Of a DNA stretch of 17,277 bases, positions 1-17,277 are shown piece after piece; the first letter of the stretch is position 1, and every line of letters starts with the position of its first letter. The notes below the pieces were generated by a model, which was given only the letters and a program-made list of their open reading frames with translations, was not told the DNA's origin and made no database searches. The stretch comes from a virus. Its lineage: Duplodnaviria > Heunggongvirae > Uroviricota > Caudoviricetes. Location of the stretch: IMG/VR virus record IMGVR_UViG_2529292908_000014, positions 1 to 17,277 of that record, one strand, 5' to 3'. Position numbers and translations under genes: made by a program.

Positions 1-572
1 CGCTCACTTGCTTTTGGAGAAGCTGATTATATCGTCCGGGTTCACTGGCGAGGATTGCGCTGGTTAACTGCAGAAGGAATGCGCTTTGACATGATGGGTT
101 TTCTGCGCGGGCTGGATTGCGGTAAGAACGGTGAAACCACTGTAATGATAGGCAATTCAGGTAATAAAAAGCCGGAGCTCCCTTTCCGGCACGTCTCATT
201 GCCGTATCACTTCCTCCCGAAAAAGCATTAATCAGTAAAACCCGACTGCTCAGCGAGAATCGTCGAAAAGGACGAGTAGTTCAGGCGGAAACGCTGGAAG
301 CAGCGGGCCATGTGCTATTGCTAACATCATTACCGGAAGATGAATATTCAGCAGAGCAAGTGGCTGATTGTTACCGTCTGCGATGGCAAATTGAACTGGC
401 TTTTAAGCGGCTCAAAAGTTTGCTGCACCTGGATGCTTTGCGTGCAAAGGAACCTGAACTCGCGAAAGCGTGGATATTTGCTAATCTACTCGCCGCATTT
501 TTAATTGACGACATAATCCAGCCATCGCTGGATTTCCCCCCCAGAAGTGCCGGATCCGAAAAGAAGAACTAA
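1..572 (+). pseudogene. IS4-family (IS186-like) DDE transposase, C-terminal ~190 codons; 5' end outside window; reading frame broken (frame 1 open 1-228, frame 3 open 168-572)
   Basis: Two overlapping stop-free frames both read as transposase (frame 1 ...GEADYIVRVHWRGLRWLTAEGMRFDMMGFLRGL...GNSGNKK; frame 3 ...RVVQAETLEAAGHVLLLTSLPEDEY...YRLRWQIELAFKRLKS...). The switch falls in the A-run aataaaaag at about 163-171. Either a true -1 frameshift or a homopolymer sequencing error. Confidence 0.6.
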
Positions 573-743
573 CTCGTTGTGGAGAATAACAAAAATGGTC
601 ATCTGGAGCTTACAGGTGGCCATTCGTGGGACAGTATCCCTGACAGCCTACAAAACGCAATTGAAGAACGCGAGGCATCGTCTTAACGAGGCACCGAGGC
701 GTCGCATTCTTCAGATGGTTCAACCCTTAAGTTAGCGCTTATG
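1..743 (+). mobile_element. 3' portion of an IS186-like (IS4-family) insertion sequence; continues beyond the left window edge; right terminal inverted repeat ends at about 743
   Basis: Transposase-like reading frames with the IS4-family Y(2)R(3)E(6)K signature (YRLRWQIELAFKRLK, about nt 380-425). Terminal 23 nt caacccttaagttagcgcttatg (721-743) matches my recollection of the IS186 inverted repeat (CATAAGCGCTAACTTAAGGGTTG on the other strand). GC-rich flank ggtcggtggccacgg fits IS186 target preference. Identification is from memory, not a search. Confidence 0.65.
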
Positions 744-1563
744 GGTCGGTGGCCACGGCTTTCATGTTATGAATGCCTGTCTGACCACCACCTGCATTAC
801 CGCTGCCCTGCCCGGATAATGTGCGCACGCTGCCGTCCTCGTTCCAGATGTCCAGTGGCACCACGGCTACCTGTTTCTTGCTGTCTGCGCGGCGGGCGTG
901 GCTCTGAGCCAGTACTGTCAGTTCGGAGAAACAGCCGTTAATGGACCTGGTATCGTCCAGCTCCATCACGTTGTTCCCGGTACCGTCCAGCTTCAGAATC
1001 AGCGTGTCCACCGGCGTGGTGGTGTAGTCAGGGCCACCCACAACCAGCGTACCGTCAGGCTCAAACCACGGCCATAAGCCGCGACCGGCGGCAGCTTTAG
1101 CCAGTGCATCCCACGCACGCATCCCCGGCTCTATAACGACCTTGTCATTACGTGACACACCAGACGCCTGAATACGGATGCGCTGTATCCCCAGCGGTCT
1201 GACTATCCTGTCGATGACCTCGTCCAGTGTCAGCTGATTGGCGCTGAACACCGGCGCGGCACAGTCCACCAGAATGGCGGCATCATCACGCCCGGACAGG
1301 GTCAGCGCGCAGCTCTGACGGGATACACTGCGGCGCACGCTGTCCACGCGACCACTAAGGACCGTCTCATCTCCCACCTGCAAACGGACTGGCACACCCC
1401 GGACGATATCCGCCGGGAACACCTTTTCAGGCAGTCCCAGCTGAAGCTGCCACCCGTCGGCTGCTTTCAGGAAATCGCTGTCAATACGATAACTGCTCCA
1501 GTCAGAATGCGATCTTCCGGCAATGACCAGGCTGATTTTGTCGTCGTTATTTTGCATAGGCAT
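739..1563 (-). CDS. Baseplate hub protein, Mu gp44(P)/P2 gpD-like, 3'-truncated (274 codons; intact homologues are ~380 aa in my recollection); stop codon lies inside the IS terminal repeat
   Basis: ATG at 1563 (alternative ATG at 1557). Protein has the character of the tail late-control-D/baseplate-hub family (…LTLSGRDDAAILVDCAAP…). Last codon and TAA (739-741) fall within the IS repeat ending at 743. Position directly after the gp43-like gene. Confidence 0.55.
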   Translation of the reverse strand: MPMQNNDDKISLVIAGRSHSDWSSYRIDSDFLKAADGWQLQLGLPEKVFPADIVRGVPVRLQVGDETVLSGRVDSVRRSVSRQSCALTLSGRDDAAILVDCAAPVFSANQLTLDEVIDRIVRPLGIQRIRIQASGVSRNDKVVIEPGMRAWDALAKAAAGRGLWPWFEPDGTLVVGGPDYTTTPVDTLILKLDGTGNNVMELDDTRSINGCFSELTVLAQSHARRADSKKQVAVVPLDIWNEDGSVRTLSGQGSGNAGGGQTGIHNMKAVATDP

Positions 1564-2896
1564 TAATCACCATCCCGGCGGTTATGTTGTTCGGGTCACG
1601 CAGCTGCGGGTTCAGACGTTGCAGCTCTGCCGCACGGCTGTAATCACCGTACCACTGCCACGCCAGCAACAGCAGGCAACCGTCCGCCTGCACCTGTTTC
1701 TGCGTCAGCGGTGGGCGGCGTGACAGAGTCAGCAGGCCGACATCCTGCACGGATGCCGCCACGTTCTTCATGCTCTGAATGATTTCCGGGTACATCAGCC
1801 CCAGCGGTGATGCGGTTTCGGTTATCCGTTCGCGTTCGCCTTCATAGCGTTCACGGAACAGCGTGATGGCTGCCTGTAAGCGGGTGCGCACATCCCCGAC
1901 CAGTCGCCCGATATCCGCCGGTATAAGCTGCTCTGACTGGGCCTCATCTGACAGTATCGCCGTCGCCACGCTGGCCAGCTCTGAGGCTGCCAGAACCGCA
2001 TAAGCCGCTTTCACGTCGTGCACGTCTTCCACGGACGCATCCGGCGGAAGTGCCACAGACGGCGTTTTATCACCGCTGACCAGTGCGACCGGCAGCGCGA
2101 CCAGCTCATCCATATCTGCCATCACCTCATTCCAGCAGGTCATCACTGTCGCAGAACTGGCGACGTTGTCTTCCCCGGTCAGTCCGGTCGTGGTGGCGGA
2201 ATCACTACGCGCCAGAACCGGCACCGCGTGCCCGACATCTGACGTGTGGATTTCCAGCACCTCTGCCAGCCCGCCGATAAACTTTCCGGGTTCGCTGGTC
2301 AGTGACACAACATTTTCGACTGTGGAGAATGAATCACTTTTGAACGTCAGCAGGGTATTTACCAGCGTGGCACGCACTGCCTGGATTTTTTTAATCACGC
2401 TGTTAATGGTCTTTAAAGGGGGCGTAACAGCGTCAAAAAATTCGCTTAACTGTGCCAGTAACTTATCCAGTTCTTCAAATAACTGCTGTGCAAACAGCTC
2501 TGGTAACGGGGTGCAGAACAACGCACTGCCGGTGCGGCTCTCCAGAAAGCTCATGTCGATGGTGCAGCTGTCCGGGCTTTCTGCGTCATGGCGAATGCTG
2601 TAGCCGGTCACAATCACCGACGGTACGGAGCCGTAAACCGGGTGAATCAGCTCACCATCGCCGCCTTCGTCCAGGGCAGCGATCAGCTTTTCAAGTTTAT
2701 ATTCGTAATACTCCCCCCACAGGAACGCCGTCATGCGGAACGGTCGCGCCTTGCGTCCGAGGTCGTGCAAATCTGCCCCGTCAACAAACGGGTATTCATA
2801 GACCGCATGGTCGCGGCTGATTTGTTCATCCGTGTTCAGTACATCAAACTGCACGCCACGAAAGGAGGCGTTTTGCAGGTTTTCAGCCCAGCCCAT
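1547..2896 (-). CDS. DNA circulation protein, Mu gp43 (N)-like tail protein
   Basis: 449-aa ORF; N-terminus MGWAENLQNASFRGVQFDV...YEYPFVDGADLHDLGRKARPFRMTAFLWGEYYE resembles the DNA_circ_N family as I recall it. ATG at 2894-2896 overlaps the upstream TGA (TGATG coupling). Sits between the tape-measure ORF and the baseplate hub as in Mu. Confidence 0.7.
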   Translation of the reverse strand: MGWAENLQNASFRGVQFDVLNTDEQISRDHAVYEYPFVDGADLHDLGRKARPFRMTAFLWGEYYEYKLEKLIAALDEGGDGELIHPVYGSVPSVIVTGYSIRHDAESPDSCTIDMSFLESRTGSALFCTPLPELFAQQLFEELDKLLAQLSEFFDAVTPPLKTINSVIKKIQAVRATLVNTLLTFKSDSFSTVENVVSLTSEPGKFIGGLAEVLEIHTSDVGHAVPVLARSDSATTTGLTGEDNVASSATVMTCWNEVMADMDELVALPVALVSGDKTPSVALPPDASVEDVHDVKAAYAVLAASELASVATAILSDEAQSEQLIPADIGRLVGDVRTRLQAAITLFRERYEGERERITETASPLGLMYPEIIQSMKNVAASVQDVGLLTLSRRPPLTQKQVQADGCLLLLAWQWYGDYSRAAELQRLNPQLRDPNNITAGMVINAYAK

Positions 2897-5352
2897 CAGT
2901 AAGTTCCTCCCGTGCCTCTGTTACCGTCCTGAAGGTTGTATTTGTTCACTGCTTCCGCCACAATCTGACCATCGAGCACCAGTTGTGTGGTGAAATTAAT
3001 GGGGCTGGCAGGTGGCCCCCAGTGCGTGAGGTATCCCGGCTGGGTGATGCGTCCGGGTTGCGTTGATACTGATTCAGGCGTTGTGTTTCCGGCGGCTTTG
3101 TTGACCTGCGCCGGTGATGGCAGGGCATCAGCTGCGGCTTTTTTCCTGTCTTCCTCCCAGCGCCTCAACCACTCTTCGTTTTCGGTGGAGTAGCCTTCCC
3201 CAAACTGCCACCACGGCTGGTATTTTTTGCGGGCAGCATCGATGATTTCCTGGGGATATCGGGCGCGGATGCGCTTCCAGCGTTCCTCGCTTCCTTCGAC
3301 GGCGGCGTCTTCTTCCGGGCTGGTTGCGGTGGCCAGTGCCGTAACGGTGCCACCGAAAGAAAGCAGGCTACCGGCAATGCCGGGGAATTTAAATCCTTTG
3401 CCTTTTTTGACCGTGTTTTCAATTACATCACCGACAACCTCGCCAGCCTTGCCACCGGTTTTACCCCCGGTCAGGATTTTGATCCCGGCCCATGTCAGAG
3501 CCGCTGCGGTCATCGCTTCAATGGCGGTCGTGGCACCCACCACTGCCGTGGTCAGTCCCGGAAACTTTTCACCCGCCCAGCTTATGGCATCGGCCACAGT
3601 ACCGGACGCATCAGCCAGCTTTTTCATGCTGTCCATTTGTGAAAATTCAAGCGTGTTTTTGGCCTGTTCGGTTTTAAAGTCATTGAGGCCGGATATGAAT
3701 TTAAAATCCACATCACCCGCGCGCTGACCTTCCGGCAGGGTGCGCTGCTGATTAATCGCGTCTTCAACCTTTTTCCGGTATTCAGGGTTGTTACGGTAAG
3801 CCAGCAACGCTTTTAACGCCTGTTGGTCTGCAACCAGTTTCCCGACACCAAAGCCTTCAAGGAGTTTTGCCATCGAATCATAAACAGCTGTCTGCTCGCC
3901 TTTATCCCGGGCGGAGGCCAGTTTCTTTTGCAACTCCTGAAAGCGTTTATCGCTGGCAGCGATTTTGTCTATCAGACTGGACAGCGCATCTATCGGATCA
4001 AGCCCATGTTCGCGCGCCTGAACCAGCGTGCCGGAAAAATCAATTCCTTTACCGTTGTAATCAATGCTCTTTGCCGCTGTTTCAATATCGTGGCTGGTCA
4101 GTTTAGCCAGCAGGTTAAACACGTTATTTCCGGCCTCATCACTGCTTCCCGCCGTGATGGCGGCAGCTTCATTCAGCGCCAGAATCTTGACAAAATCATC
4201 CTTGCCTCTCATCCCCGCAGCTGACGCTGACCCCAGTTGCGAAGATAACCAGCGGGCCATGTCGCTCAGTTCAAAGCTACCTTCTTTGCCCGCTGCAATT
4301 GCCATATTCAGAACGGTGGAAATATCTTCATCCCTGAATCCAAAGGTCTTTTTACCCTTAAGCATCACATTAGCCAGGTCTGTCGCTGATGCACCGGAAG
4401 CCGTGGCGTATTTCATCAGTTCAGGCAGCCACTTACTGGCTGTTTCAAATGAAATACCGCCATCTTTCAGCAGGGCATCCAGCGTTTCGGCGGCGTCTTC
4501 TTTCGTGCCGCCACCCCAGGTCACCGCGTTACGGATGCTGTTTTTCATCTGCTCAAGACCAGCCCTGCGCCCCTCCAGCCCGCTATCACTGAAGGCGGTA
4601 TTGGCCATCATTGCCAGCTGGCGTTCGTAGCTCATCTGCTTTTTGACCGGCTGCGCCATAATGGCAGCACCTGCTGCGATACCAGCGCCTGTTGTCACGG
4701 CATTCCCGCCAAATGCAGCCGCACGGGCAAAACGCCCCGGTTCGGGGATAACCAGGTCAGGACGGTACGGGCCGTGGCGCAGACCACGCAGTTTTTTACC
4801 ACTACCGGCAACGGTCACCTTGATATTGTTGGCCGTGACGATGGTCCCCATACGCCAGACGCGACCCTGCCCGCACACTTCCGGGAAATCGTTTTTTAAA
4901 CGGGGGTTAAACTCCAGTTCAGCCTTGATGGCTTCCAGCATCGGATAAGCCTGGTCGATACTGTCCATAATGATGACCGGGTAATGCTTAATGGCCCGGA
5001 TAATGGTCCACAGGGTAAACAGCTGAGTCACCAGCGTGGATTTTGCTTCACCACGGGGCGCGGCGATGGCGTCGTTCTCCGGGTCCGGGCTTGCCACAAC
5101 CTGTGGCAGACGGCTGAACAGGTATTTATGCAGCTCACTTTTTGCCGGGTTGCGGACGTAGTGCGGGAAATAATTTTCGACAAAATAATCGTAGCCCGTC
5201 ACCGGGTCGCAGACTGCCGCCCGGCGGGCCTGTGTGGCCTGCGGGTTAACATCGAACCCCAGACATTCAGCCTCGATGGTCTGGCGGAGGTTGGCGATGT
5301 ACTCCTGCAGGCTTCTCTGAAACTCTTTAATGGAAAGTTTACGTTTTGCCAC
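2896..5352 (-). CDS. Chimeric ORF: large terminase N-terminal ATPase fragment (about 220 codons, nt 5352->4747) fused in frame to a tail tape-measure protein (about 615 codons, nt 4746->2899); probable deletion product
   Basis: N-terminal part has a deviant Walker A (AAPRGEAKST), Walker-B-like VIIMDSID and the terminase motif LRGLRHGPYRPDLVI, but the expected DDxE and nuclease domain are missing. From PEPGRFARAAAFGG onward the sequence is tape-measure-like (GSFELSDMARWL, Gly/Ala-rich hydrophobic stretch …LTGGKTGGKAGEVVGDVIENT…). The six-frame track gives 2896..5409 from a TTG; GTG at 5350-5352 directly after the methyltransferase stop is the more plausible start. Confidence 0.6.
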   Translation of the reverse strand: MAKRKLSIKEFQRSLQEYIANLRQTIEAECLGFDVNPQATQARRAAVCDPVTGYDYFVENYFPHYVRNPAKSELHKYLFSRLPQVVASPDPENDAIAAPRGEAKSTLVTQLFTLWTIIRAIKHYPVIIMDSIDQAYPMLEAIKAELEFNPRLKNDFPEVCGQGRVWRMGTIVTANNIKVTVAGSGKKLRGLRHGPYRPDLVIPEPGRFARAAAFGGNAVTTGAGIAAGAAIMAQPVKKQMSYERQLAMMANTAFSDSGLEGRRAGLEQMKNSIRNAVTWGGGTKEDAAETLDALLKDGGISFETASKWLPELMKYATASGASATDLANVMLKGKKTFGFRDEDISTVLNMAIAAGKEGSFELSDMARWLSSQLGSASAAGMRGKDDFVKILALNEAAAITAGSSDEAGNNVFNLLAKLTSHDIETAAKSIDYNGKGIDFSGTLVQAREHGLDPIDALSSLIDKIAASDKRFQELQKKLASARDKGEQTAVYDSMAKLLEGFGVGKLVADQQALKALLAYRNNPEYRKKVEDAINQQRTLPEGQRAGDVDFKFISGLNDFKTEQAKNTLEFSQMDSMKKLADASGTVADAISWAGEKFPGLTTAVVGATTAIEAMTAAALTWAGIKILTGGKTGGKAGEVVGDVIENTVKKGKGFKFPGIAGSLLSFGGTVTALATATSPEEDAAVEGSEERWKRIRARYPQEIIDAARKKYQPWWQFGEGYSTENEEWLRRWEEDRKKAAADALPSPAQVNKAAGNTTPESVSTQPGRITQPGYLTHWGPPASPINFTTQLVLDGQIVAEAVNKYNLQDGNRGTGGTY

Positions 5353-5353
5353 G

Positions 5354-6094
5354 TCACACCTGCACTGCTTCTGTCTGGGCTTTTTCGATACGTGCGCAGG
5401 CGATATCAAAATACTGGTTAGTCATTTCAATGCCGGTAAACCGTCCGCCACGGGCAAGTACAGGGATGGCGGTAGTGCCGCTTCCCATAAACGGATCAAG
5501 GACGTGCGCATCCGGTGTCAGCGGTTTAACCAGCTCAGCCATCAGCTGAACCGGCTTTGCGGTCATGTGCAGTTTTTCGGACGGGACGACACGCTGCGTA
5601 ATCACACCCGGGAACGGGCCACCGTGCGGGCATTTGTCGAGTTTTCCGTTGCTGCCCCAGACCACATACTCGGCCTGATGCCGAAAATAGCCAGTGTGTG
5701 GCGCACGGGAAGCCTGCGTTTTATCCCAGACAACCAGACCACGCCACAGCACACCACCGGCCTGAAATGCATCTGTAAGCGCCGGTAGTTGTCGCCAGTC
5801 ACTGAACACCATGAAATAACCGCCGGAATTCAGCCTGTGCAATGCATGAGATATCCACATGGAACACCAGAACGCCCAGCTGCGCTGGTCGCGGTTATCG
5901 CCGGTGAACTCGGCATACTGGGTGTGACCGATATACTTGTCCGAAGGGGCCATGCTGCGGTCTGATTTGTGTGTACCACCACTGCTGTAAGGCGGGTCGG
6001 TAATGACGGCATCAAAACGTTCGGATAACGCCGGCAGCACATCAAGAACATCACCGCAATACAACGTTGCGTTACCAATAATCTGTTTTTGCAT
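5354..6094 (-). CDS. DNA methyltransferase, beta-class amino-methyltransferase (N6-adenine or N4-cytosine), no restriction partner in the window
   Basis: 246-aa ORF from ATG at 6094. Motif IV DPPY near the N-terminus (…DAVITDPPYSSGG…) and motif I FxGxG near the C-terminus (…LDPFMGSGTTAIPV…), the permuted order typical of this class. Confidence 0.85.
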   Translation of the reverse strand: MQKQIIGNATLYCGDVLDVLPALSERFDAVITDPPYSSGGTHKSDRSMAPSDKYIGHTQYAEFTGDNRDQRSWAFWCSMWISHALHRLNSGGYFMVFSDWRQLPALTDAFQAGGVLWRGLVVWDKTQASRAPHTGYFRHQAEYVVWGSNGKLDKCPHGGPFPGVITQRVVPSEKLHMTAKPVQLMAELVKPLTPDAHVLDPFMGSGTTAIPVLARGGRFTGIEMTNQYFDIACARIEKAQTEAVQV

Positions 6095-6140
6095 TACAAA
6101 TCCCGAATATCAGACGACCCGGAAAACCGGGCCGCTGTGG

Positions 6141-6641
6141 TTAACTGAAATTATCCTCAAGCTCTTTAGCGAAGCCTTCGAGCACCTCAAGAAACGGGGC
6201 ATACTGCGTCGGGTGACGCTCCTTGATGAACGCGCCGAGCCGCTGCACCACTTCCAGTGCCGTGGCGAGCCGGTCGGTTTCCGGCAGGATTTTTTTACTG
6301 CTGGCCACCGCCTTACTGAGACTGTCGGACAGACTCGCCAGCAGTTCGACGGACTCCTGCGGCGGGATGTCCGGGTTCTGGTTCAGCCGTTCAAGCGTCG
6401 TCTGACACTTCACCACCAGACTGATAAGCACGGTGCGGGCGACACTTTCCAGCCCGTCACCGGCGAGCGCGTGCGCGGCCCGCAGCTTGTCCCAGTCGTC
6501 GCCGTTCTTCATCGCCTGCGTTTTCCAGCGCCGCGCGGTGTCGTGCGGCACGGCGTACTTCATGGCGACGATATCCAGCGGAAGCTGGTCAAAGATGTAC
6601 CCGTTACGGACTTTGTCCCTGATATCCTGTGACCACGCCAT
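6141..6641 (-). CDS. Putative small terminase / DNA-binding packaging protein (Mu gp27-like)
   Basis: 166-aa ORF, ATG at 6641 overlapping the upstream TAA (TAATG). Predicted helix-rich N-terminus (…IRDKVRNGYIFDQLPLDIVAMKYAVPHDTARRWKTQA…). Located just upstream of the terminase-like ORF. Functional call rests on position and recall. Confidence 0.45.
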   Translation of the reverse strand: MAWSQDIRDKVRNGYIFDQLPLDIVAMKYAVPHDTARRWKTQAMKNGDDWDKLRAAHALAGDGLESVARTVLISLVVKCQTTLERLNQNPDIPPQESVELLASLSDSLSKAVASSKKILPETDRLATALEVVQRLGAFIKERHPTQYAPFLEVLEGFAKELEDNFS

Positions 6642-6847
6642 TAAGTGTCCTTCTGAGCCTGTTCAATCCTGCGCTGAACTTCGTCGGGATTTTCAAGAAC
6701 AAATACGTTTTTCCCGGTATCCAGTTCAATGACCGTGCCATCATGTGTACCGTACTGACGGTAAAAATGGGTGATTCGTTCAGCGAGCACCATGACAGCG
6801 CCAGCACCTCCTGAACCTGTGTATTCTGTAAATCTGATAATGCTCAC
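6641..6847 (-). CDS. Small hypothetical protein (68 codons from GTG at 6847; 50 codons from ATG at 6793)
   Basis: Open frame between the lipoprotein ORF and the gp27-like gene; stop overlaps the next start; no recognisable motif. Confidence 0.3.
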   Translation of the reverse strand: MSIIRFTEYTGSGGAGAVMVLAERITHFYRQYGTHDGTVIELDTGKNVFVLENPDEVQRRIEQAQKDT

Positions 6848-6867
6848 TGTGTCAGACCTTCAAAAAA

Positions 6868-7050
6868 TCAGTTCTGCGAACACTGCCGGATACCGTCAAT
6901 AATCCGGCAGACCTGCGCCGCCGCGTCAAACAGCTGGCCCGCTCTGTTAATGTCTGAGCATCCCACCGGAAGCAACATCATCAGAAACAGGGCCAGAACA
7001 CAGCGCGCGGCTTTACGTGGCGTTCTGTGGGGCCAGCGACTTCTGTTCAT
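6868..7050 (-). CDS. Small putative lipoprotein (possible o-spanin-like lysis accessory protein)
   Basis: 60-aa ORF, ATG at 7050, 13 nt after the endolysin stop. Basic N-region, hydrophobic core LALFLMMLLPV, then Cys (…LPVGC…), resembling a lipoprotein signal; short Cys-containing mature part. No transmembrane i-spanin partner found. Confidence 0.35.
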   Translation of the reverse strand: MNRSRWPHRTPRKAARCVLALFLMMLLPVGCSDINRAGQLFDAAAQVCRIIDGIRQCSQN

Positions 7051-7063
7051 AACCCGTCCCGCA

Positions 7064-7441
7064 TCAGCGTTTTAACTGGAAATGAGGCCCGTCTTTCAGC
7101 GTTTTCCAGTCTCCGCCCCATTCGATGGCGACACCCAGCTCTGCGGCAGCCTGTTTAAAGGCACGGGCGATTTTTTCGTATAACGGCCAGTCCCATGAAA
7201 TAGTGCTACCAACGTAAGCCACGACATCAACGGCATCGCCAGTAAGGTGACGGCTGTTCATGGTCTGGCTCTTGCCTTCAGCGACAAGTTGTTTCTGACG
7301 TTCTTTCGTGCGTAAACCTTCGGTAATACCAAAATCGACGTCCGACAACGCCAGCGCACGGCGTACAACTGCCACCAGTTGTGGCTTTACGTCAGCCAGA
7401 TTTTTCTCGCTACGTTGACTGAAACGGAATTTTCCCGACAT
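7064..7441 (-). CDS. Endolysin, zinc metallopeptidase M15 family (L-alanyl-D-glutamate peptidase-like)
   Basis: ATG at 7439-7441 preceded by GGAGGTG; 126 codons. Zn-ligand pattern H-x3-D (…SRHLTGDAVDV…) and a distal His (…DGPHFQL…). No signal peptide, so holin-dependent. The six-frame ORF extends to 7684, but the internal ATG with a Shine-Dalgarno sequence fits the gene boundary. Confidence 0.8.
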   Translation of the reverse strand: MSGKFRFSQRSEKNLADVKPQLVAVVRRALALSDVDFGITEGLRTKERQKQLVAEGKSQTMNSRHLTGDAVDVVAYVGSTISWDWPLYEKIARAFKQAAAELGVAIEWGGDWKTLKDGPHFQLKR

Positions 7442-7443
7442 AT

Positions 7444-7722
7444 TCACCTCCGCAATAACGAAAGGATTTTTGACAAATTCCCGTGCGCCCACACGATAAG
7501 CGCACAGAAAACCAGATTCAGCGCCACAACCAGCCAGCTGGATTGCGTGTATGTACCGGACAGCCAGCGGAACGGGATGATGACGTAGCCGAGCATCAGC
7601 CAGTACGCCAGCCAGGTAATCATCGGTTTGTGCGCCGCACCGTGGCGGCGATACACAAACAACCCCAGAACAATGGTGAGACACAGCCAGACGTTCACGA
7701 TACCGGCAAGGCTACTTTCCAT
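7444..7722 (-). CDS. Small membrane protein, three predicted transmembrane segments (holin or antiholin candidate)
   Basis: ATG at 7720-7722 preceded by GGAGGGGG; about 92 codons; hydrophobic segments SLAGIVNVWLCLTIVLGLFVY, MITWLAYWLMLGYVIIPF, WLVVALNLVFCALIVWA; ends 2 nt before the endolysin start. Confidence 0.5.
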   Translation of the reverse strand: MESSLAGIVNVWLCLTIVLGLFVYRRHGAAHKPMITWLAYWLMLGYVIIPFRWLSGTYTQSSWLVVALNLVFCALIVWAHGNLSKILSLLRR

Positions 7723-8104
7723 TTCCACCCCCTCCGCCGCGCAGTCTGGAAAACAGGCCGAACAGCGATGAAATTTCCTGTTGATAAAGAAAGGTCAGTA
7801 TCTTGATGGATAACGCCGAGACACCGACCGCACACAATGCATCGAGCGGCTTGTCGTTGTAGTGGGTCAGCCACTGCATCAGTGACGCAGCCACGCCAGC
7901 CCCCAGAACGCCAACCACAAATGCGACGAGCAGGTGGATGGCCATTCGCCAGACCGGGATTTCTTTCTGCTGCGTGACAACAAAAAGCGCCCCGGCAAAC
8001 GCGCCCACCACAACCCCGAAATCGGTATTGGTGAGAAGACCAAACACACTGGCACCACCAATGGTGACTGCCACAGCTCCACCGCCTGATAAGGGTTCAG
8101 ACAT
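7712..8104 (-). CDS. Membrane protein with 3-4 predicted transmembrane segments (putative holin)
   Basis: ATG at 8102-8104 preceded by AGGAGAAA; 130 codons; Gly/Ala-rich hydrophobic helices (…AVAVTIGGASVFGLL…, …FGVVVGAFAGALFVV…, …AIHLLVAFVVGVLGAGVAASLM…); first gene of the lysis cassette. Confidence 0.5.
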   Translation of the reverse strand: MSEPLSGGGAVAVTIGGASVFGLLTNTDFGVVVGAFAGALFVVTQQKEIPVWRMAIHLLVAFVVGVLGAGVAASLMQWLTHYNDKPLDALCAVGVSALSIKILTFLYQQEISSLFGLFSRLRGGGGGNGK

Positions 8105-8286
8105 GAGTTTCTCCTGTAAATCTGAGCCACTGACGGCCCGTAAATAACACCCTGTCAAAGGCACAGAAGCCTTTTGCAGGGCGCTATCCCTTAAGGTGCC
8201 TTGTGGTCTGAGTGGACAGGGTAAACGGTCTGGTGTGGTGGGTACTGCTGAGGGAGTTCAGCACCCCGCGGCGGCGGGGTGATAAA

Positions 8287-8565
8287 TCAGAAGCGGGAAA
8301 GAGAATCCGGCGTAATAAGAGGTTTATTACAAAGCGGAGCAGAGGCGTTCGCCTTTTCCATCGCTGCACGCATCTCGTTTTCGCTGGCGATGATGTCAGC
8401 AATGGCACACTGCAACGCTTCTTCCTGAACAACCATATCCGGTTGTTCGGCCATTCGGTTTAGCTGGCTGGCCAGATTTTTCATATAAGCGAAGCGGCGT
8501 CCGGCAGCATCCCGGGCCTGCTCTGAGTAGGCTGTATACTCGCCAAGTGCCGTATAGTTGGTCAT
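8287..8565 (-). CDS. Hypothetical protein (92 aa) in the position where Mu has the late activator C
   Basis: ATG at 8563-8565 with a strong Shine-Dalgarno sequence (AAAAAGGAGACACTT-ATG); no Mor/C-like motif. Confidence 0.4.
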   Translation of the reverse strand: MTNYTALGEYTAYSEQARDAAGRRFAYMKNLASQLNRMAEQPDMVVQEEALQCAIADIIASENEMRAAMEKANASAPLCNKPLITPDSLSRF

Positions 8566-8591
8566 AAGTGTCTCCTTTTTTCTGAGGCCCA

Positions 8592-9059
8592 TTAATCAAA
8601 AAGCCCCACCTGGGTGGGGCTTTTCAGCGAAGTCTGTTTTTGTCGTCGGTGTATCAGCTGCCATGCGTACCGGTCTGAAATCCCGTAACGGGGACAAAGC
8701 AGTGCCAGCGCCTGCCGGTGTGAAAATCCGTCTCTGATATGCTGCTGTAAATCAGCCATAAAACGGGCGTTACGCAGAGCACGTAACGCATGATCGCAAC
8801 GGGGAATGTAAAACGGAGCACCGCCAAGAAAGCGGATCAGTTTGTTGATTTCGTCTTCGGTCAGCACGTCATGTAACAGGGCATGGACACCGCCAGTACG
8901 TTCGGCGTGTGCGCCGGTTTTACCGCTTAACGTCACGCCACCAAAAGAACGAATCAACCGGGTCATGGCGGGGAAGCCAATCACGCTAATCAGTTGCTGC
9001 ACGGAATCGGGCAGCAGTGCCTGCGCATCGCGAAGATCTGTTTCACTGAAGGTCTGCAT
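8592..9059 (-). CDS. mor: Mor/C-family transcription activator (middle-operon regulator-like)
   Basis: 155-aa ORF, ATG at 9059 with GGAGA upstream. C-terminal region …LIRFLGGAPFYIPRCDHALRALRNARFMADLQQ…YGISDRYAWQLIHRR matches the Mor/C signature as I recall it (LGG..VYIPR … YG.S…VY.I). Lies immediately after gemA as mor does in Mu; being C instead cannot be excluded. Confidence 0.65.
   Translation of the reverse strand: MQTFSETDLRDAQALLPDSVQQLISVIGFPAMTRLIRSFGGVTLSGKTGAHAERTGGVHALLHDVLTEDEINKLIRFLGGAPFYIPRCDHALRALRNARFMADLQQHIRDGFSHRQALALLCPRYGISDRYAWQLIHRRQKQTSLKSPTQVGLFD
8596..8621 (-). terminator. Hairpin plus short T-tract overlapping the last codons of the mor-like gene (candidate intrinsic terminator, minus strand)
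   Basis: Minus-strand AGCCCCAC-CCAG-GTGGGGCT followed by TTTTGATTAA; 8-bp GC-rich stem, short U-tract. Confidence 0.4.
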
Positions 9060-9121
9060 GATGGCGTCTCCGGTAGTAACTTACTGTTATTATAGCCATA
9101 CATGATCGCCTGTACAGACCA

Positions 9122-9148
9122 CAAAAAAGCCCCTGCAAGGCAGGGGCT
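9122..9148 (-). terminator. Rho-independent terminator-like hairpin between gemA and the mor-like gene (minus strand)
   Basis: Minus-strand AGCCCCTGC-CTT-GCAGGGGCT followed by TTTTTTGT; 9-bp GC-rich stem, 6-T tract; starts 6 nt after the gemA stop. Confidence 0.55.
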
Positions 9149-9154
9149 GATTCT

Positions 9155-9568
9155 TTATTGTTTACGTGCTGCTCTGACTCGTTTTCTGGCGTCTTTTGTC
9201 AGCGCCACCATCACCCCGAAAAGCTGTTCATCCGTCAGCCATTCGATCACATGTTGCTTATACATGTGAGATGCCAGTCCTTCCGCATACACCCAGGAAC
9301 GACCGGCATCAGCCAGTAACGCTTCAATTTTGGATAATACCGATTTTCTGCTCATTGCAACACGAGGGCGGCGACCTTTACCAGCGGGGGCCTTGCGCGG
9401 AAATCCCTGTTCGTGCATGTATTCCCGGATGATGCGCAGTTCATCGAGATTGCAGCGTGTGGTGCTGGTTTTACCTGTCAGGCGGATCAGTGTCTGGCGA
9501 TAAAGAGCATCATCCCACCCCAGATATGCCTGACCGGCTTTAATGGCCCCGATCATCTTTTTCTGCAT
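9155..9568 (-). CDS. gemA: GemA-like regulatory protein (Mu gp16 family)
   Basis: ATG at 9566-9568 preceded by GAGGA; N-terminus MQKKMIGAIKAGQAYLGWDDALYRQTLIRLTGKTSTTRCNLDELRIIREYMHEQGF resembles GemA/DUF1018 proteins as I recall them. The six-frame ORF extends to 9667, but the internal ATG with RBS fits better. Confidence 0.7.
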   Translation of the reverse strand: MQKKMIGAIKAGQAYLGWDDALYRQTLIRLTGKTSTTRCNLDELRIIREYMHEQGFPRKAPAGKGRRPRVAMSRKSVLSKIEALLADAGRSWVYAEGLASHMYKQHVIEWLTDEQLFGVMVALTKDARKRVRAARKQ

Positions 9569-9854
9569 GTTTGTTATCCTCAAAACGCACGGTAAAACGT
9601 GAAACACCAATCCCCAACAGGAACGCGGCGGCACGGTCAAGAGACAGCCACGTCTTGTAATCGCCACGGCGTTCCTGTAGAAAACAGGACACCCCGGCGC
9701 GGCGATTCACAGCGAAGAGGTGATACACACCCCCGAACCGCTGCACGACGAACTCATCCACGCCACCGCTTTCAGCCTGTTGCCTGAAAGCTGCCATTCC
9801 GATTTGTTCAATCTTCATAATGACCAAAACATCATTTTTGGCAGACCAAAACAT
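9540..9854 (-). CDS. Hypothetical early protein (up to 104 aa; start uncertain among 9854, 9818, 9797)
   Basis: Open frame overlapping the gemA start by 29 nt; no convincing Shine-Dalgarno sequence for any start; the longest start lies inside the 28-bp palindrome. Confidence 0.35.
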   Translation of the reverse strand: MFWSAKNDVLVIMKIEQIGMAAFRQQAESGGVDEFVVQRFGGVYHLFAVNRRAGVSCFLQERRGDYKTWLSLDRAAAFLLGIGVSRFTVRFEDNKHAEKDDRGH

Positions 9855-9868
9855 ATGTTTTGGTCTGC
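9841..9868. promoter_or_regulatory. 28-bp perfect palindrome GCAGACCAAAACATATGTTTTGGTCTGC, with a third direct half-site copy at 9822-9832; candidate operator
   Basis: Read directly and checked base by base for self-complementarity; half-site GACCAAAACAT present three times; sits in the 215-bp intergenic gap 9855-10071. Confidence 0.5.
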
Positions 9869-10071
9869 TGTTGGTTATTATTTAATTACTTTGCGTTAGT
9901 GTGATTCTTCCAGCGATTTTGGGCTGCGCTGGGCTTGTTAAGGGAACACATCACAATATCAGCTGTGTTTGTGAACAAACCCATTCTGCGGTTACTGAGT
10001 TTTAGCCATTGCTGGACGCCGCGAGCGTTTCTACAGGTCAAAAGAATTTTTGCTTTACGTTTTTCATCTGA

Positions 10072-10380
10072 TTATTCCCCTGAAATCAGTCCTGAACGGA
10101 TTACTGTTTTTGCAATATGCGCCCGTAATTGCTGCGTTCCGTGGTATTTGATTGCCACATCGCGTAATTTATTAACCAGCTCCCTGAGCTGATACTCTTT
10201 TGCTCCCGGTGTCACCGGAATGATTCCTGCTCTCCGGTATTCCTGAAGCTCCAGCAGGGACTGCCGTAAGAGCGTCCACCACTCTCTGTCTACAATCGGC
10301 CCGCGCATATCAAGCATTTTGTCAGCATCGGCAATCAGTCTGGTCAGGCTCTTATCGCTTATTCTGGTTTGCTGGTTCAC
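10072..10380 (-). CDS. Hypothetical early protein (102 aa)
   Basis: GTG at 10378-10380 overlaps the upstream TGA (GTGA coupling); first ATG at 10317; no recognised motif. Confidence 0.4.
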   Translation of the reverse strand: MNQQTRISDKSLTRLIADADKMLDMRGPIVDREWWTLLRQSLLELQEYRRAGIIPVTPGAKEYQLRELVNKLRDVAIKYHGTQQLRAHIAKTVIRSGLISGE

Positions 10381-10667
10381 TGCGCCGCCTCCTGCTCATT
10401 TTTTTCACTCCGGTATACCAAAATCACGATATCTCCCTGGGTAATTACGCGTGCCGGATCTCCCTGCTGCATACGGTCAATATCAAAAGCGTCATTAAAC
10501 GCATTTAGCGCCTTCACGCGCTTGTCTTTGCGGCGACGTTTTTCACATTGCTTAAAGAACGAAGAAATCAACCACCTGAATGACATAAAAATGATATAGC
10601 CATAACCGATAAGCGCCAGACCTGTATTCATGGCTACATCTATCGTTATCGTTTTATCAATGACCAT
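10377..10667 (-). CDS. Small membrane protein (96 aa, one N-terminal transmembrane helix, basic cytoplasmic segment)
   Basis: ATG at 10667 preceded by AGGAGG; hydrophobic stretch NTGLALIGYGYIIFMSF followed by KQCEKRRRKDKR. Confidence 0.45.
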   Translation of the reverse strand: MVIDKTITIDVAMNTGLALIGYGYIIFMSFRWLISSFFKQCEKRRRKDKRVKALNAFNDAFDIDRMQQGDPARVITQGDIVILVYRSEKNEQEAAQ

Positions 10668-10887
10668 TGCCAGCCTCCTGTTTTGCCACCTTAAACGCCC
10701 GTAACATCGGAACCGTTTTACCGGTGATGACTGTTCTCATTAAAAGACCGCCACCGCTCTCATGGCGCACTTCAGGAGCAACAAACAGCGCCGCATCCAC
10801 AACCCGGCGATAGCGGCGGAACTCCCAGAACCAGCAGGTAACAATGATTTTTGCGGTGACTCCGTAGTCATAAAATTCAATATTCAT
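10657..10887 (-). CDS. Hypothetical early protein (76 aa)
   Basis: ATG at 10885-10887 overlapping the upstream TGA (ATGA coupling). Confidence 0.4.
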   Translation of the reverse strand: MNIEFYDYGVTAKIIVTCWFWEFRRYRRVVDAALFVAPEVRHESGGGLLMRTVITGKTVPMLRAFKVAKQEAGNGH

Positions 10888-11111
10888 TTGCAGTTAAACC
10901 TTCTTTTGTGACGTTCTACAGCAGCTTTCATGGCGTTGTGCACGGTTCTTTTAATAATCCGGCGTCCCGCACTGTCATAGAACCGCCACCGGGAAGCCCC
11001 CGGATATTCAGGGAACTCAACCGCCGCGCTACCGTCATTCATCCTGTATTCGTGGCGTTCTCCGGGCGGCTGGTATATTGCTTCGGTAACACTGAGAAGT
11101 TTAAAAGCCAT
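10884..11111 (-). CDS. Hypothetical early protein (75 aa)
   Basis: ATG at 11111 preceded by GGGGAGGGTG. Confidence 0.45.
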   Translation of the reverse strand: MAFKLLSVTEAIYQPPGERHEYRMNDGSAAVEFPEYPGASRWRFYDSAGRRIIKRTVHNAMKAAVERHKRRFNCK

Positions 11112-11823
11112 CGTTACACCCTCCCCAGTGCCAGCGTTTTGTTGCTCTGACCATTAACCCCCTGATGCAGTCTGGCGTTTTTCCCGGCGATAAAACCGGC
11201 TGTAGCGGCAGACTCTGCACCCCGGCACGCTTTAGCGGTGCGCATATCCCCGTCGCGCAGTCCCTTGGTGCTGTGCAGGTTCTTTCTGTAAAGCTCAAGG
11301 CGGCTTTTTCTTCCGGGGAGACGTCATACACCGCAATGACATCACGGGCACCAAAGACCCAGCCTTCGCAGAACTGGTCGCCACGGGCCACCCGCGTGGA
11401 CGGGCCGCAACGTTTGCAGTGTTTATCCTGATATTTCTTGCGCTCTGCCATCATCTGACGGGAAAGCACATCAAACGCGTAGGCCGCGATTTCCGGGCGG
11501 CTGTCAGGACCATAAAAACGAACGTAACGCTTGAGTGAACCAGAAGCCCGGTATTCGCCGGAGATGTAACACTCGACACCGAAGGCTTTACAGACCAGGT
11601 CACACAGGATGTGCATATAACGCGGCGGTGTACTGGCATCACTCGGCGCACCCGCGCTGGCAGCGTCCTGAATGTCGAACAATTCCGCGTCGTTTTCGCT
11701 GATACCATGCTGGCGCATATAAGCCTGGGCTTTTGCAATAGCGTTAGCGGCTTCTTCCGGGCTTGATGTCCCTCTTGCAAGGCGTAACAGCTTTTTAATT
11801 TTGGCGATGTATTTATTTTTCAT
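11101..11823 (-). CDS. DUF2786-like protein with Cys-rich C-terminal region
   Basis: N-terminus MKNKYIAKIKKLLRLARGTSSPEEAANAIAKAQAYMRQHGISENDAEL matches the DUF2786 pattern as I recall it; several Cys pairs downstream (…CDLVC…, …CKRCGPS…FCEGW…); ATG at 11823. Confidence 0.6.
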   Translation of the reverse strand: MKNKYIAKIKKLLRLARGTSSPEEAANAIAKAQAYMRQHGISENDAELFDIQDAASAGAPSDASTPPRYMHILCDLVCKAFGVECYISGEYRASGSLKRYVRFYGPDSRPEIAAYAFDVLSRQMMAERKKYQDKHCKRCGPSTRVARGDQFCEGWVFGARDVIAVYDVSPEEKAALSFTERTCTAPRDCATGICAPLKRAGVQSLPLQPVLSPGKTPDCIRGLMVRATKRWHWGGCNDGF

Positions 11824-14933: not shown

Positions 14934-17000
14934 TTAACGGTTGTTTGTGCCGTTTTTCTTTAAATTGCGCTCGCGTTCAGATGCGAATAAATAAAGTTCT
15001 TCTTTTTCCTTTTTCTCCGGGCGCTCCAGACCAAATCCAAAATTAAACTCAGATTTCTGCGTAATAGCCGGGGTAAGCTCGCGTTTCGCCTCTTCGATTT
15101 TCTGCGTGGCCCGTGCAATACGGCCCCTGACGCGTTTCTCCAGTTTTTGCTCGATAACTGGTTTAGCGAAGGCATCAACCTTATTGCCGTTCCAGATGGC
15201 ATCGCAGATATAAGAGCCATCAGCCCGCCGGACAATGACACTGTTTGCATCATGAATATCGTAACTGACCCTGACTTCATTCCCGTGCTCTGCGGCCAGC
15301 TCATATGAGTAATAAATATTGTTGAATAACTGAATTTCCCCGCGAAATGTTTTGCGCGTCACCTCCGGTCTGAACATTTCATGCAGTTCTTCCGGCGACA
15401 GGAAATCAATTTCAACATTCTGCTCTTTTATCAGTTTCCGGCGATACGCTGCCGGGCTGTAATATTCGCCATCCTCTTTGCGGGGAAGGCTGCTGTGTGG
15501 CCGGTTGTTATAGCGTCTGACCTCCAGCTCTATGGCCGCCATCAGTTGCTCAAAGGTGGGGATTTCATCCCTCGCCTTAACCTGCCGTTTTGTCAGCTCT
15601 TTCCCTTTGTGGGTGGCCTTAATGGCTGACTGCATAATCCGTTGCTGCATCATTACGGTTTCCTTGTCTGCTCCCTTTGAGCAGTACGTCCGGAAACTCA
15701 GGGCCACATCCCGGGGAATTTCCTTGTTAAGCCTTTCAATCACCCCGCGCCCCTGTGGGTTACCTGGTATCCCCGTGTGATGTTCCACACCCAGCCGGGG
15801 GAGAACCCCGGTAATATCGGCATCAAGCACCCGGTTTTTTTCGCCGCCCCCGTTATCGGAGTAATAAATCAGCGGTATCCCGTGCTGTGCCATGCCGTAA
15901 CGCAACGCATCAGCAACGGCTATCACGTTTTCCGACAGGGACAGTGACCAGCCCACAACAAAGCGCTGCCCCGCATCCATAACCAGCGTCACTTCTGGCC
16001 GGAAAATATTGCCGGTCAGGGGGTTAAACGCGGTCATTTTCATACAGTGACCATCCCCGACCCATACCGCATTAACCGGTAATGTGCTCCAGTCGCGCCG
16101 CACAAAGGGATTGAGCGAACGCCAGGCTGAACCGGTGGAGCGGAAACGCTCTTTAACAATCACCGGGACGCTGCTTAACACCCGTCTGACTGCGTGAACT
16201 GAGGGCAGTGCCGCCAGCATTCCCGCATCGTTCGCGTGCTTCTCATGCCACCAGGCTGAAAACTCGCGATACGCATATTCAACGGTCGGGCGCTTCCATG
16301 AGCGATAGAACATAAAGAAATCGCTCAACCACCAGACCTGCTCCCACGGTGTTCCCTTATGATGACCGGGAGCCAGTAACGCCAGTAACTGATTGGCATC
16401 ACCGCGCGCCATCACCCAGCTGGAGTACCAGCTATCCAGGCTGCCGGTGCTGACACCGGTTCGCTTTCCCTGACGTGCATTTGCAGTATTCGCTGCTTCG
16501 ATAATGCGGTCAGGTAACGCCCCCATGCGCACACCATCAACGATGTGCTTTAACGCGGCCTTCCTGGTCATTCTGGCGTATTCACGCAGTTTATGCACTT
16601 CAGTAGCCAGCAATATCCGCGCATCAGCAATGGCCTTTTGCTTGTCGGTCAGTGCCTGGACTTCGCGTAATGCCAGTTCCGGGCATTTGACCATCACTTC
16701 CAGTTCATCGCGAACAGCAACGTTTTTAACTGCCTTCTGCTCAACCACAACGGGCAGTTGTGCATCTTCCAGAACCTGCTGGGCTAGACGTTGACGTAAA
16801 GCCTTCTGCGTTTCAGTGGGAAGGCTATGAATATGATATTCAACACCCCCACCTTTCATTTCTCTAACTCTACTCGCCCACTTATCTCGCTTCGCTTTTA
16901 CCGCAATCCCTACTCGTGTTGATGGAATTCCCGGCAAAGATAGATCTGCTAATTCTTGGGCCGAATAGTGCGTTTTTACACAGTCATCACTCATAACCAC
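14934..17000 (-). CDS. A: Mu-type DDE transposase A
   Basis: 688-aa ORF. N-terminus …AQELADLSLPGIPSTRVGIAVKAKRDKWASRVREMKGGGVEYHIHSLPTETQKAL parallels the MuA enhancer-binding domain as I recall it. Size and position between ner and B. Likely start at ATG 16992-16994 (track start 17000 is GTG). Confidence 0.9.
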   Translation of the reverse strand: MVMSDDCVKTHYSAQELADLSLPGIPSTRVGIAVKAKRDKWASRVREMKGGGVEYHIHSLPTETQKALRQRLAQQVLEDAQLPVVVEQKAVKNVAVRDELEVMVKCPELALREVQALTDKQKAIADARILLATEVHKLREYARMTRKAALKHIVDGVRMGALPDRIIEAANTANARQGKRTGVSTGSLDSWYSSWVMARGDANQLLALLAPGHHKGTPWEQVWWLSDFFMFYRSWKRPTVEYAYREFSAWWHEKHANDAGMLAALPSVHAVRRVLSSVPVIVKERFRSTGSAWRSLNPFVRRDWSTLPVNAVWVGDGHCMKMTAFNPLTGNIFRPEVTLVMDAGQRFVVGWSLSLSENVIAVADALRYGMAQHGIPLIYYSDNGGGEKNRVLDADITGVLPRLGVEHHTGIPGNPQGRGVIERLNKEIPRDVALSFRTYCSKGADKETVMMQQRIMQSAIKATHKGKELTKRQVKARDEIPTFEQLMAAIELEVRRYNNRPHSSLPRKEDGEYYSPAAYRRKLIKEQNVEIDFLSPEELHEMFRPEVTRKTFRGEIQLFNNIYYSYELAAEHGNEVRVSYDIHDANSVIVRRADGSYICDAIWNGNKVDAFAKPVIEQKLEKRVRGRIARATQKIEEAKRELTPAITQKSEFNFGFGLERPEKKEKEELYLFASERERNLKKNGTNNR

Positions 17001-17028
17001 TCACTGTCGGTGCTTATACACCAATAAA

Positions 17029-17277
17029 CTAGCGATTGTTATATCTTGATGGCCATATATCCTCTGGACTTACCCCAAGAAATTCGGCGATGATATGTTC
17101 GCCTTTTGGCCACGGACGATTAAGCGCGTTATTCAGATACCACGGACTCTTTCCCACATGTAACGATAAACGCCTTAATGACCATCCGCGTTTGCGTATC
17201 TCCGCAACAATGTCAGCTCGATGCCAATCGCCTTGAGTTTTTTTAGGTGTTTTGATGTACTCATAAAGTAACCTCAT
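17029..17277 (-). CDS. ner: Ner-like DNA-binding protein (Ner/Nlp family); start codon is the last 3 nt of the window, so the 5' end may be incomplete
   Basis: …DWHRADIVAEIRKRGWSLRRLSLHVGKSPWYLNNALNRPWPKGEHIIAEFLGVSPEDIWPSRY closely parallels Mu Ner (DWHRAD…WPKGE.IIA…PE.IWPSRY); stop 28 nt upstream of A. Confidence 0.8.
   Translation of the reverse strand: MRLLYEYIKTPKKTQGDWHRADIVAEIRKRGWSLRRLSLHVGKSPWYLNNALNRPWPKGEHIIAEFLGVSPEDIWPSRYNNR

What the first reader, a model, noticed from the sequence alone, without database searches (positions are those of the whole stretch)
721..760. IS insertion cuts off the baseplate hub gene; its stop codon is supplied by the IS terminal repeat
The gp44/P-like ORF ends at a TAA (739-741) that lies inside the 23-nt terminal repeat caacccttaagttagcgcttatg (721-743). 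About 100 expected C-terminal codons and all downstream tail genes (other baseplate proteins, tail fibre, invertase, mom, attR) are missing from the window, so the prophage right arm was disrupted or deleted by the IS. The GC-rich flank ggtcggtggccacgg matches what I recall of IS186 target preference.
Basis: partly seen in the sequence, partly recalled or inferred. Interest (0 to 1): 0.4.

Follow-up and report, generated by a model that had tools for sequence, protein, structure and literature searches.

The report
IS186 insertion splits prophage baseplate gene
A common E. coli jumping gene (IS186/IS421) has landed in its preferred target sequence inside the baseplate-hub gene of an already crippled Mu-like prophage, cutting the protein short; this is ordinary prophage decay, and in the nearest related strain the rest of the gene and the tail genes still lie just beyond the insertion.

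Summary
Window 1-743 is the last 743 bp of an IS186/IS421 element. It is 100% identical to copies in E. coli genomes and matches K-12 IS186A at 743 of 744 aligned positions. It ends in the 23-bp inverted repeat at 721-743. Homology to intact Mu-like prophages starts at 743/744. The minus-strand ORF 739-1563 (274 aa) equals residues 1-274 of a 403-aa gp44/P-like hub protein. Its TAA stop (739-741) lies inside the repeat. So 129 codons are lost, not about 100.

The intact target reads GGGG-TCGGTGG-CCAC. That is one mismatch from the published IS186 target GGGG(N6/N7)CCCC, and the junction sits in the canonical register.

A short-read assembly (SRR9913975) that is 99.98% identical to the window holds both junctions. 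One contig ends in the IS right end. The other starts with the IS left end, then the 11-bp duplication GGCCACCGACC, the rest of P, the baseplate and fibre genes, the prophage end and host genes. This is a simple insertion, not an IS-mediated deletion.

The prophage also carries an 11.4-kb internal deletion running from the terminase gene into the tape-measure gene.

The finding is ordinary and already-known biology, and interest is low.

The parts
1..743 (+). Right-hand 743 bp (element positions 596-1338) of an IS186/IS421 (IS4-family) insertion sequence. The transposase reads towards the junction.
   Evidence: Identical to L004 1201-1943. 100% identical to copies in many E. coli genomes annotated 'IS4-like element IS421 family transposase'. 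743/744 to K-12 IS186A. ORF 312-572 hits Pfam DDE_Tnp_1.
166..170 (+). A5 run where K-12 IS186A has A6. This 1-nt deletion frameshifts the transposase.
   Evidence: Alignment and run lengths. PGAP marks such copies 'frameshifted'. Only 38 of 2736 records have an A5 copy.
721..743 (+). 23-bp right terminal inverted repeat of the IS.
   Evidence: Exact reverse complement of the left repeat of the full copy. The match ends after 23 bp.
739..741 (-). TAA stop codon of the truncated hub gene, supplied by the IS repeat.
   Evidence: Read inward from the element tip, two of the three frames hit a stop inside the 23-bp repeat.
744..754 (.). GGTCGGTGGCC, the right-hand copy of the 11-bp target-site duplication. 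The target is GGGG-TCGGTGG-CCAC.
   Evidence: Intact target in L001 12000-12014. The second copy is seen next to the IS left end in L006 28-38 from SRR9913975. Same register as 8 other IS copies.
739..1563 (-). Truncated Mu gp44/P-like baseplate hub gene, residues 1-274 of 403.
   Evidence: Pfam GpP-like_1st and Gp44-like_2nd. Identical to the first 274 residues of WP_053899525.1. The intact protein also has NMB1110_3rd (248-303) and NMB1110-like_C (305-372). PDB relatives are 3D37 and 1WRU.
1547..2896 (-). Mu gp43/N-like DNA circularisation (tube initiator) gene, intact. It is the upstream neighbour of the hub gene.
   Evidence: Pfam DNA_circ_N. 449 aa, as in the intact prophage.
2896..5352 (-). 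In-frame fusion ORF of 818 aa: terminase large subunit residues 1-202 joined to tape-measure residues about 141-757. The deletion junction is at 4742-4756.
   Evidence: blastn of the window against the intact prophage L005. Junction sequence and prefix/suffix identities. The same gene is called in L002.

Best explanation
An IS186/IS421 element transposed by ordinary cut-and-paste into the only near-consensus IS186 target in the baseplate hub gene of a Mu-like prophage. That target is GGGG-TCGGTGG-CCAC. The insertion duplicated 11 bp (GGTCGGTGGCC). It splits the gene after codon 274. Translation of the 5' part runs one base of phage DNA plus two IS bases (CCA, Pro, the same residue as the native codon CCC) and then meets TAA in the 23-bp terminal repeat.

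The product lacks part of the third domain and the whole C-terminal domain. In phage Mu that C-terminal domain contacts the spike and the tape measure. The truncated protein is therefore inferred to be unable to build a baseplate. The IS is also expected to be polar on the downstream baseplate and fibre genes; this too is inferred.

The remaining 129 codons of P and the rest of the right arm most likely still lie immediately left of the window, beyond the other 595 bp of the IS.

The prophage was in any case already, or also, dead. An 11.4-kb deletion at a 7-bp microhomology removed the 3' part of terL, the portal, head, sheath and tube genes and the 5' part of the tape-measure gene.
For: - **IS identity and end:**
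- **Junction position:** the phage match starts at window 743/744. The intact sequence ccacggtGGGGtcggtggCCACggc is seen.
- **Target rule:** Lee et al. 2016 (PMC5009759) report GGGG(N6/N7)CCCC. In eight full copies I examined, the duplication is GG+N6/7+CC, 10 or 11 bp. The window junction lies after the second G in the same way.
- **Rarity of such sites:** 30 sites within one mismatch in 37 kb, and one in P.
- **Both junctions in one sample (SRR9913975):** L002 ends ...GGCCACCGACC|CATAAGCGCTAACTTAAGGGTTGaacc, the IS right end. L006 starts accaCAACCCTTAAGTTAGCGCTTATG|GGCCACCGACC|ccaccgtggat..., the IS left end. It continues through the rest of P, the gp45, gp46, J and gp48 homologues, the fibre gene and the fibre assembly gene, then into host genes.
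- **Relatedness:** L002 is 99.98% identical to window 717-11561 and carries the same internal deletion.
- **Domain loss:**. The role of the gp44 C-terminal domain comes from PMC11915804.
- **Internal deletion:**
Against: - The window stops inside the IS, so its own left junction is unseen. The simple-insertion conclusion rests on a near-identical strain, not on the window.
- In that strain the two junctions are on separate short-read contigs. Each breaks 27 nt into the IS, so physical linkage through a single IS copy is inferred rather than shown.
- No complete E. coli genome (5426 searched) and no scanned genome or metagenome contig holds either junction.
- The target has one mismatch to the consensus.
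- The IS copy carries a frameshifted transposase (A5 run). If that is real, the copy cannot have moved on its own transposase in its present state.
Confidence: 0.85

Rival explanations
1. The IS did insert at this site, but in the window's own genome a later IS-mediated event removed or relocated the rest of P and the right arm. The event could be recombination between IS186 copies or an adjacent deletion or inversion. Unrelated DNA would then lie left of the IS.
For: - The left junction is not in the window.
- IS-IS recombination is common in E. coli: 98 events among 857 in PMC5009759.
- Genomes that have any IS186/IS421 copy carry a median of 3.
Against: The closest available relative differs at 2 positions in 10.8 kb and shares the internal deletion. 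It keeps the left IS end, a matching 11-bp duplication and the whole right arm.
Confidence: 0.12
2. The IS-to-P join is an assembly artefact, for example a chimeric join at a repeat, and the gene is intact in the real genome.
For: ISs are classic sites of misassembly. The A5 run in the IS could hint at homopolymer errors in the source assembly.
Against: - The same junction appears in independent short-read assemblies of SRR9913975 and SRR491164; the latter contig is seen in 2 samples.
- It lies at a canonical IS186 target with a matching 11-bp duplication on the reciprocal contig. A misjoin would not produce that.
Confidence: 0.01
3. The 274-aa protein is a natural short form of the hub protein, and the resemblance to an IS end is coincidental.
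For: None found.
Against: - Window 1-743 is 100% identical to IS copies in E. coli genomes.
- Homologues are 403 aa.
- The 274-aa form occurs only on IS-broken contigs.
- The truncation cuts through Pfam domain NMB1110_3rd.
Confidence: 0

Closest known systems
IS186 (IS186A/B/C of E. coli K-12) / IS421, IS4 family
   Same: - 743/744 identity to K-12 IS186A over the part visible in the window.
- The same 23-bp terminal inverted repeat.
- A DDE_Tnp_1 transposase C-terminus.
- A target of the GGGG(N7)CCCC type, with an 11-bp duplication seen in the relative.
   Different: - One A is missing in an A6 run (window 166-170), which frameshifts the transposase.
- The target has CCAC instead of CCCC.
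- This insertion site is found in none of 5426 complete E. coli genomes.
Bacteriophage Mu gp44 (gene P) baseplate hub; PDB 1WRU/9KI1, and Neisseria NMB1110 tail protein, PDB 3D37
   Same: - The first two (tube-like) domains are present.
- The gene follows the gp43/N and tape-measure homologues, as in Mu.
- PDB matches: 3D37 at E=3e-76 and 1WRU at E=1.9e-19.
   Different: - The intact relative is 403 aa, against 379 aa for Mu gp44, and is closer to NMB1110 than to Mu gp44.
- The window copy is truncated at residue 274. It lacks most of the third domain and all of the C-terminal domain.
Defective Mu-like prophages of E. coli (the intact relative is in O166:H15 JNE21-009, NZ_AP041814.1)
   Same: 99.8-99.95% identity over window 743-8272. 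The early region (transposase A/B, Mor, GemA, lysis genes) is colinear.
   Different: The window prophage has lost 11.4 kb, from terL codon 203 to tape-measure codon about 140, and carries the IS in P.

Membership tests
IS186/IS421 (IS4 family) | Nucleotide identity to reference IS186 | tested here: met
   743/744 to K-12 IS186A. 100% to copies that RefSeq annotates as IS421 family.
IS186/IS421 (IS4 family) | 23-bp perfect terminal inverted repeats CATAAGCGCTAACTTAAGGGTTG | tested here: met
   The right repeat is at window 721-743. The left repeat is outside the window but is seen at the reciprocal junction in L006.
IS186/IS421 (IS4 family) | Intact DDE transposase (InsL, 370 aa) | tested here: not met
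   The C-terminal part hits DDE_Tnp_1. A 1-nt deletion at 166-170 breaks the frame. The N-terminal 198 codons lie outside the window. This concerns whether the copy is autonomous, not which family it belongs to.
IS186/IS421 (IS4 family) | Insertion at GGGG(N6/N7)CCCC with duplication of the core plus flanking GG/CC (10-11 bp) | tested here: met
   The target is GGGGTCGGTGGCCAC, one mismatch from the consensus. The 11-bp duplication is seen on both junction contigs of SRR9913975. The rule comes from PMC5009759 and from 8 copies examined here. The duplication is not visible in the window itself.
IS186/IS421 (IS4 family) | Complete element of 1338-1339 bp | not testable with these tools
   The window begins at element position 596. 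No contig spanning the whole insertion was found.
Mu gp44/P-like baseplate hub | GpP-like N-terminal and Gp44-like second (tube-like) domains | tested here: met
   Pfam PF21683 (E=1.1e-21) and PF22255 (E=3.2e-22).
Mu gp44/P-like baseplate hub | Third and C-terminal domains | tested here: not met
   These are present in the intact 403-aa homologue (PF22630 at 248-303, PF22174 at 305-372). They are cut off at residue 274 in the window. The window copy is a truncated gene.
Mu gp44/P-like baseplate hub | Synteny: tape measure, then gp43/N, then gp44/P, then gp45 spike | tested here: met
   Tape measure and DNA_circ_N lie upstream in the window. The gp45 homologue follows the P remainder in L006.

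The most novel reading that the evidence does not exclude
The most novel reading not excluded is that the hub gene of this Mu-like phage family is a recurrent or selected IS186 target. The near-consensus site GGGGTCGGTGGCCAC inside P would then act as a built-in switch that hosts exploit to disarm the prophage. Alternatively, the retained 274-aa tube-like fragment might have a function of its own, such as interfering with baseplate assembly of superinfecting Mu-like phages. I saw only one insertion lineage (contigs from SRR9913975 and SRR491164). None of 5426 complete genomes has it, and the prophage is independently dead. There is therefore no positive evidence for either idea.
Probability: 0.03. 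Interest if true: 0.45.

Novelty: already known. Interest (0 to 1): 0.08.

Why it matters
It matters little beyond annotation.

- The hub ORF should be annotated as an IS-interrupted pseudogene, and the prophage as defective on two counts.
- The case is a clean worked example of the IS186 target rule: GGGG(N7)CCCC with one mismatch tolerated, and an 11-bp duplication made of GG, a 7-bp core and CC.
- It shows that an IS junction at the edge of a window cannot be read as a deletion. The reciprocal junction was recoverable from public short-read data through an exact-sequence look-up of the orphaned C-terminal ORF.

Tried and rejected
- **Whole junction in complete genomes.** I looked for it in 5426 complete E. 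coli genomes. No place covers more than 74% of window 400-1700, so the source genome is not in that collection.
- **Collection scans.**
  - Right junction: genome contigs and metagenome contigs, no hits.
  - Predicted left junction with a variable-length duplication: metagenome contigs and genome contigs, no hits.
  - These absences say little, because those collections hold few E. coli strains.
- **Guessed products of the orphaned 3' part of P.**
  - The 128-aa (GTG start) and 101-aa forms are not on record.
  - The 112-aa form led to the decisive contig L006.
  - The 102-aa form led only to unrelated frameshift variants of P, not IS insertions.
- **L007 (SRR21143538).** This is just a contig break and is uninformative.
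- **A5 run as a defining feature of 'IS421'.** Rejected. Only 38 of 2736 records have an A5 copy. It also occurs at sites such as entD-hokE, which in my recollection (not checked here) carry the A6 allele in K-12. It is therefore a rare recurrent contraction or a sequencing error.
- **Not run.** I did not use the search for homologous proteins, structure prediction or RNA tools, because the question did not need them.

Full report
**Observation**

The sequence at 721-743 is caacccttaagttagcgcttatg. I fetched a full element from E. coli JE86-ST05 (L004 606-1943, 1338 bp). It begins CATAAGCGCTAACTTAAGGGTTG and ends with the exact reverse complement, and the match stops after 23 bp.

Window 1-743 is base-for-base the last 743 bp of that element. 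It has matches in 2768 E. coli records, 2700 of them at 99% identity or better. The matches are annotated 'IS4-like element IS421 family transposase'.

Against K-12 IS186A the window matches 743 of 744 aligned positions. ORF 312-572 carries the C-terminal part of a DDE_Tnp_1 domain. So the window opens inside an IS186/IS421 element, at element position 596, and the element ends at 743.

**The interrupted gene**

A megablast of window 400-1700 shows that homology to intact prophages starts at query position 344, which is window 743. Base 743 (G) belongs to the IS repeat and also matches the phage by chance. Phage DNA proper therefore starts at 744.

The minus-strand ORF 739-1563 (274 aa) has the GpP-like first and Gp44-like second domains. 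Upstream of it lie a DNA_circ_N (Mu gp43/N-like) gene and a tape-measure gene.

The best intact homologue is WP_053899525.1 in O166:H15 JNE21-009 (L001 11610-12821). It is 403 aa and identical to the window protein over all 274 residues. The last codon of the window ORF, CCA, is phage C744 plus IS bases 743-742, and by chance it still encodes the native proline. The next codon is TAA at 739-741, inside the repeat. Read inward from the element tip, two of the three frames meet a stop inside the 23-bp repeat.

The intact protein has two more Pfam domains, NMB1110_3rd (248-303) and NMB1110-like_C (305-372). The truncation therefore cuts the third domain and removes the fourth. The loss is 129 residues, not about 100.

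Solved relatives are Neisseria NMB1110 (3D37, E=3e-76) and Mu gp44 (1WRU/9KI1, E=1.9e-19). In the Mu cryo-EM structure the hub's C-terminal domain contacts the spike N-terminus and the tape-measure C-terminus (PMC11915804). I infer from this that the truncated protein cannot assemble a hub-spike complex.

**Target site**

The intact sequence reads ccacggtGGGGtcggtggCCACggc. Lee et al. [quoted passage not shown]

I examined eight full copies at six distinct sites, K-12 IS186A among them. In each, the direct repeat flanking the element is 10 or 11 bp. In seven of the eight it is GG plus the 6- or 7-bp core plus CC, with the outer GG and CC left unduplicated; the yeaR copy (L016) has GT rather than GG on its upstream side.

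The window junction lies after the second G of GGGG, in exactly that register. The implied duplication is GGTCGGTGGCC (window 744-754).

The 37-kb intact prophage region has no perfect site. It has 30 sites with one mismatch, about 0.8 per kb, and P contains exactly one, which is this one. The junction is therefore a genuine transposition junction and not a random break.

**Insertion or deletion?**

The window cannot answer this, because it stops inside the IS. No complete E. coli genome holds the junction. Four collection scans for either junction found nothing.

The exact 274-aa product is on record on two Logan contigs:

- L002 comes from a 76.5-kb contig of SRR9913975. It is 99.98% identical to window 717-11561 and carries the same internal deletion.
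- L003 comes from SRR491164.
- Both contigs break 27-28 nt into the IS.

I then guessed what a gene caller would make of an orphaned 3' part of P and looked those sequences up exactly. The 112-aa form (MEQVNW...) exists on a 10,847-bp contig of the same sample, SRR9913975 (L006).

That contig begins accaCAACCCTTAAGTTAGCGCTTATG | GGCCACCGACC | ccaccgtggattattac.... The parts are:

- The IS left end, whose internal bases GTGGT distinguish it from the right end, which has GAACC.
- The predicted 11-bp duplication.
- The remainder of P.
- Homologues of gp45, gp46, J/gp47 and gp48, a tail fibre gene, a fibre assembly gene and a 366-aa ORF.
- Host genes.

L006 28-6127 is 99.6% identical to the right arm of the JNE21-009 prophage.

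Opposite IS ends, an identical 11-bp duplication and perfectly abutting P sequence are the signature of a simple insertion. I put 0.85 on the same being true of the window's genome. The remaining doubt is that linkage through a single IS copy is inferred, and that the evidence comes from a relative.

**Other lesions**

Window 743-4756 matches L005 6622-10634, and window 4742-8272 matches L005 22011-25540. About 11.4 kb is missing. The junction lies at the microhomology GGATAAC, or TCG[G/A]GGATAAC with one mismatch.

The deletion fuses terL residues 1-202 in frame to tape-measure residues about 141-757, giving an 818-aa ORF at 2896-5352. It removes the portal, head, sheath and tube genes. The prophage is therefore defective whatever the state of P.

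The IS copy itself has A5 at 166-170 where K-12 has A6. This frameshifts the transposase. Only 38 of 2736 records have such a copy. It is either a rare inactivating contraction or a homopolymer error.

**Comparison and verdict**

The element is IS186/IS421 by sequence, repeat, transposase domain and target. The gene is a truncated member of the Mu gp44/NMB1110 hub family.

- 129 codons are lost, not about 100.
- The right arm is interrupted rather than deleted in the nearest relative.
- This phage lineage shows no invertase or mom genes to lose.
- The larger internal deletion was missed.

IS insertion into a prophage late gene at a canonical target is textbook prophage decay. Novelty is 'already known' and interest is 0.08.

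Noticed in passing
window 4742-4756 (junction); ORF 2896-5352 minus strand: An 11.4-kb internal prophage deletion at a 7-bp microhomology (GGATAAC). It fuses terL residues 1-202 in frame to tape-measure residues about 141-757, giving 818 aa. The portal, protease, major head, sheath and tube genes are gone. The same deletion is present in SRR9913975.
   Followed up: yes
window 166-170: The IS copy has an A5 run where K-12 IS186A has A6, which frameshifts the transposase. Only 38 of 2736 E. coli records with the IS have an A5 copy. A5 copies occur at several different sites. This points to recurrent homopolymer contraction or sequencing error.
   Followed up: partly
L006 117-124; L008, L010-L012 near 5997: The 3' part of P contains an A8 run. 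A7 variants in several independent assemblies split P into 301-aa and 102-aa ORFs (GCA_904810165.1 and three Logan samples). Whether these are real slippage mutants or sequencing errors was not resolved.
   Followed up: partly
window 5354-6094 minus strand: A DNA N6/N4 methyltransferase gene (Pfam N6_N4_Mtase) sits between the DUF1804 (Mu gp27-like) gene and terL. It is also present in intact relatives.
   Followed up: no
L005 1-515 and 35771-37001 (NZ_AP041814.1): In the reference strain JNE21-009 the intact prophage is flanked on both sides by further Mu-like tail and baseplate genes. These are a second DNA circularisation gene on one side and second baseplate assembly genes on the other. 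Adjacent or nested Mu-like prophages seem likely.
   Followed up: no
window 8272-8568, 9868-10669 and 16826-17277: These stretches of the early and immunity region do not match the otherwise 96-99.8% identical reference prophage. This is the usual mosaicism of Mu-like early regions.
   Followed up: no
L006 4919-6127: The right arm of this phage lineage ends with a 366-aa ORF that has no Pfam hit. About 100 bp further on come the prophage end and host genes. No invertase or mom homologue is present.
   Followed up: partly
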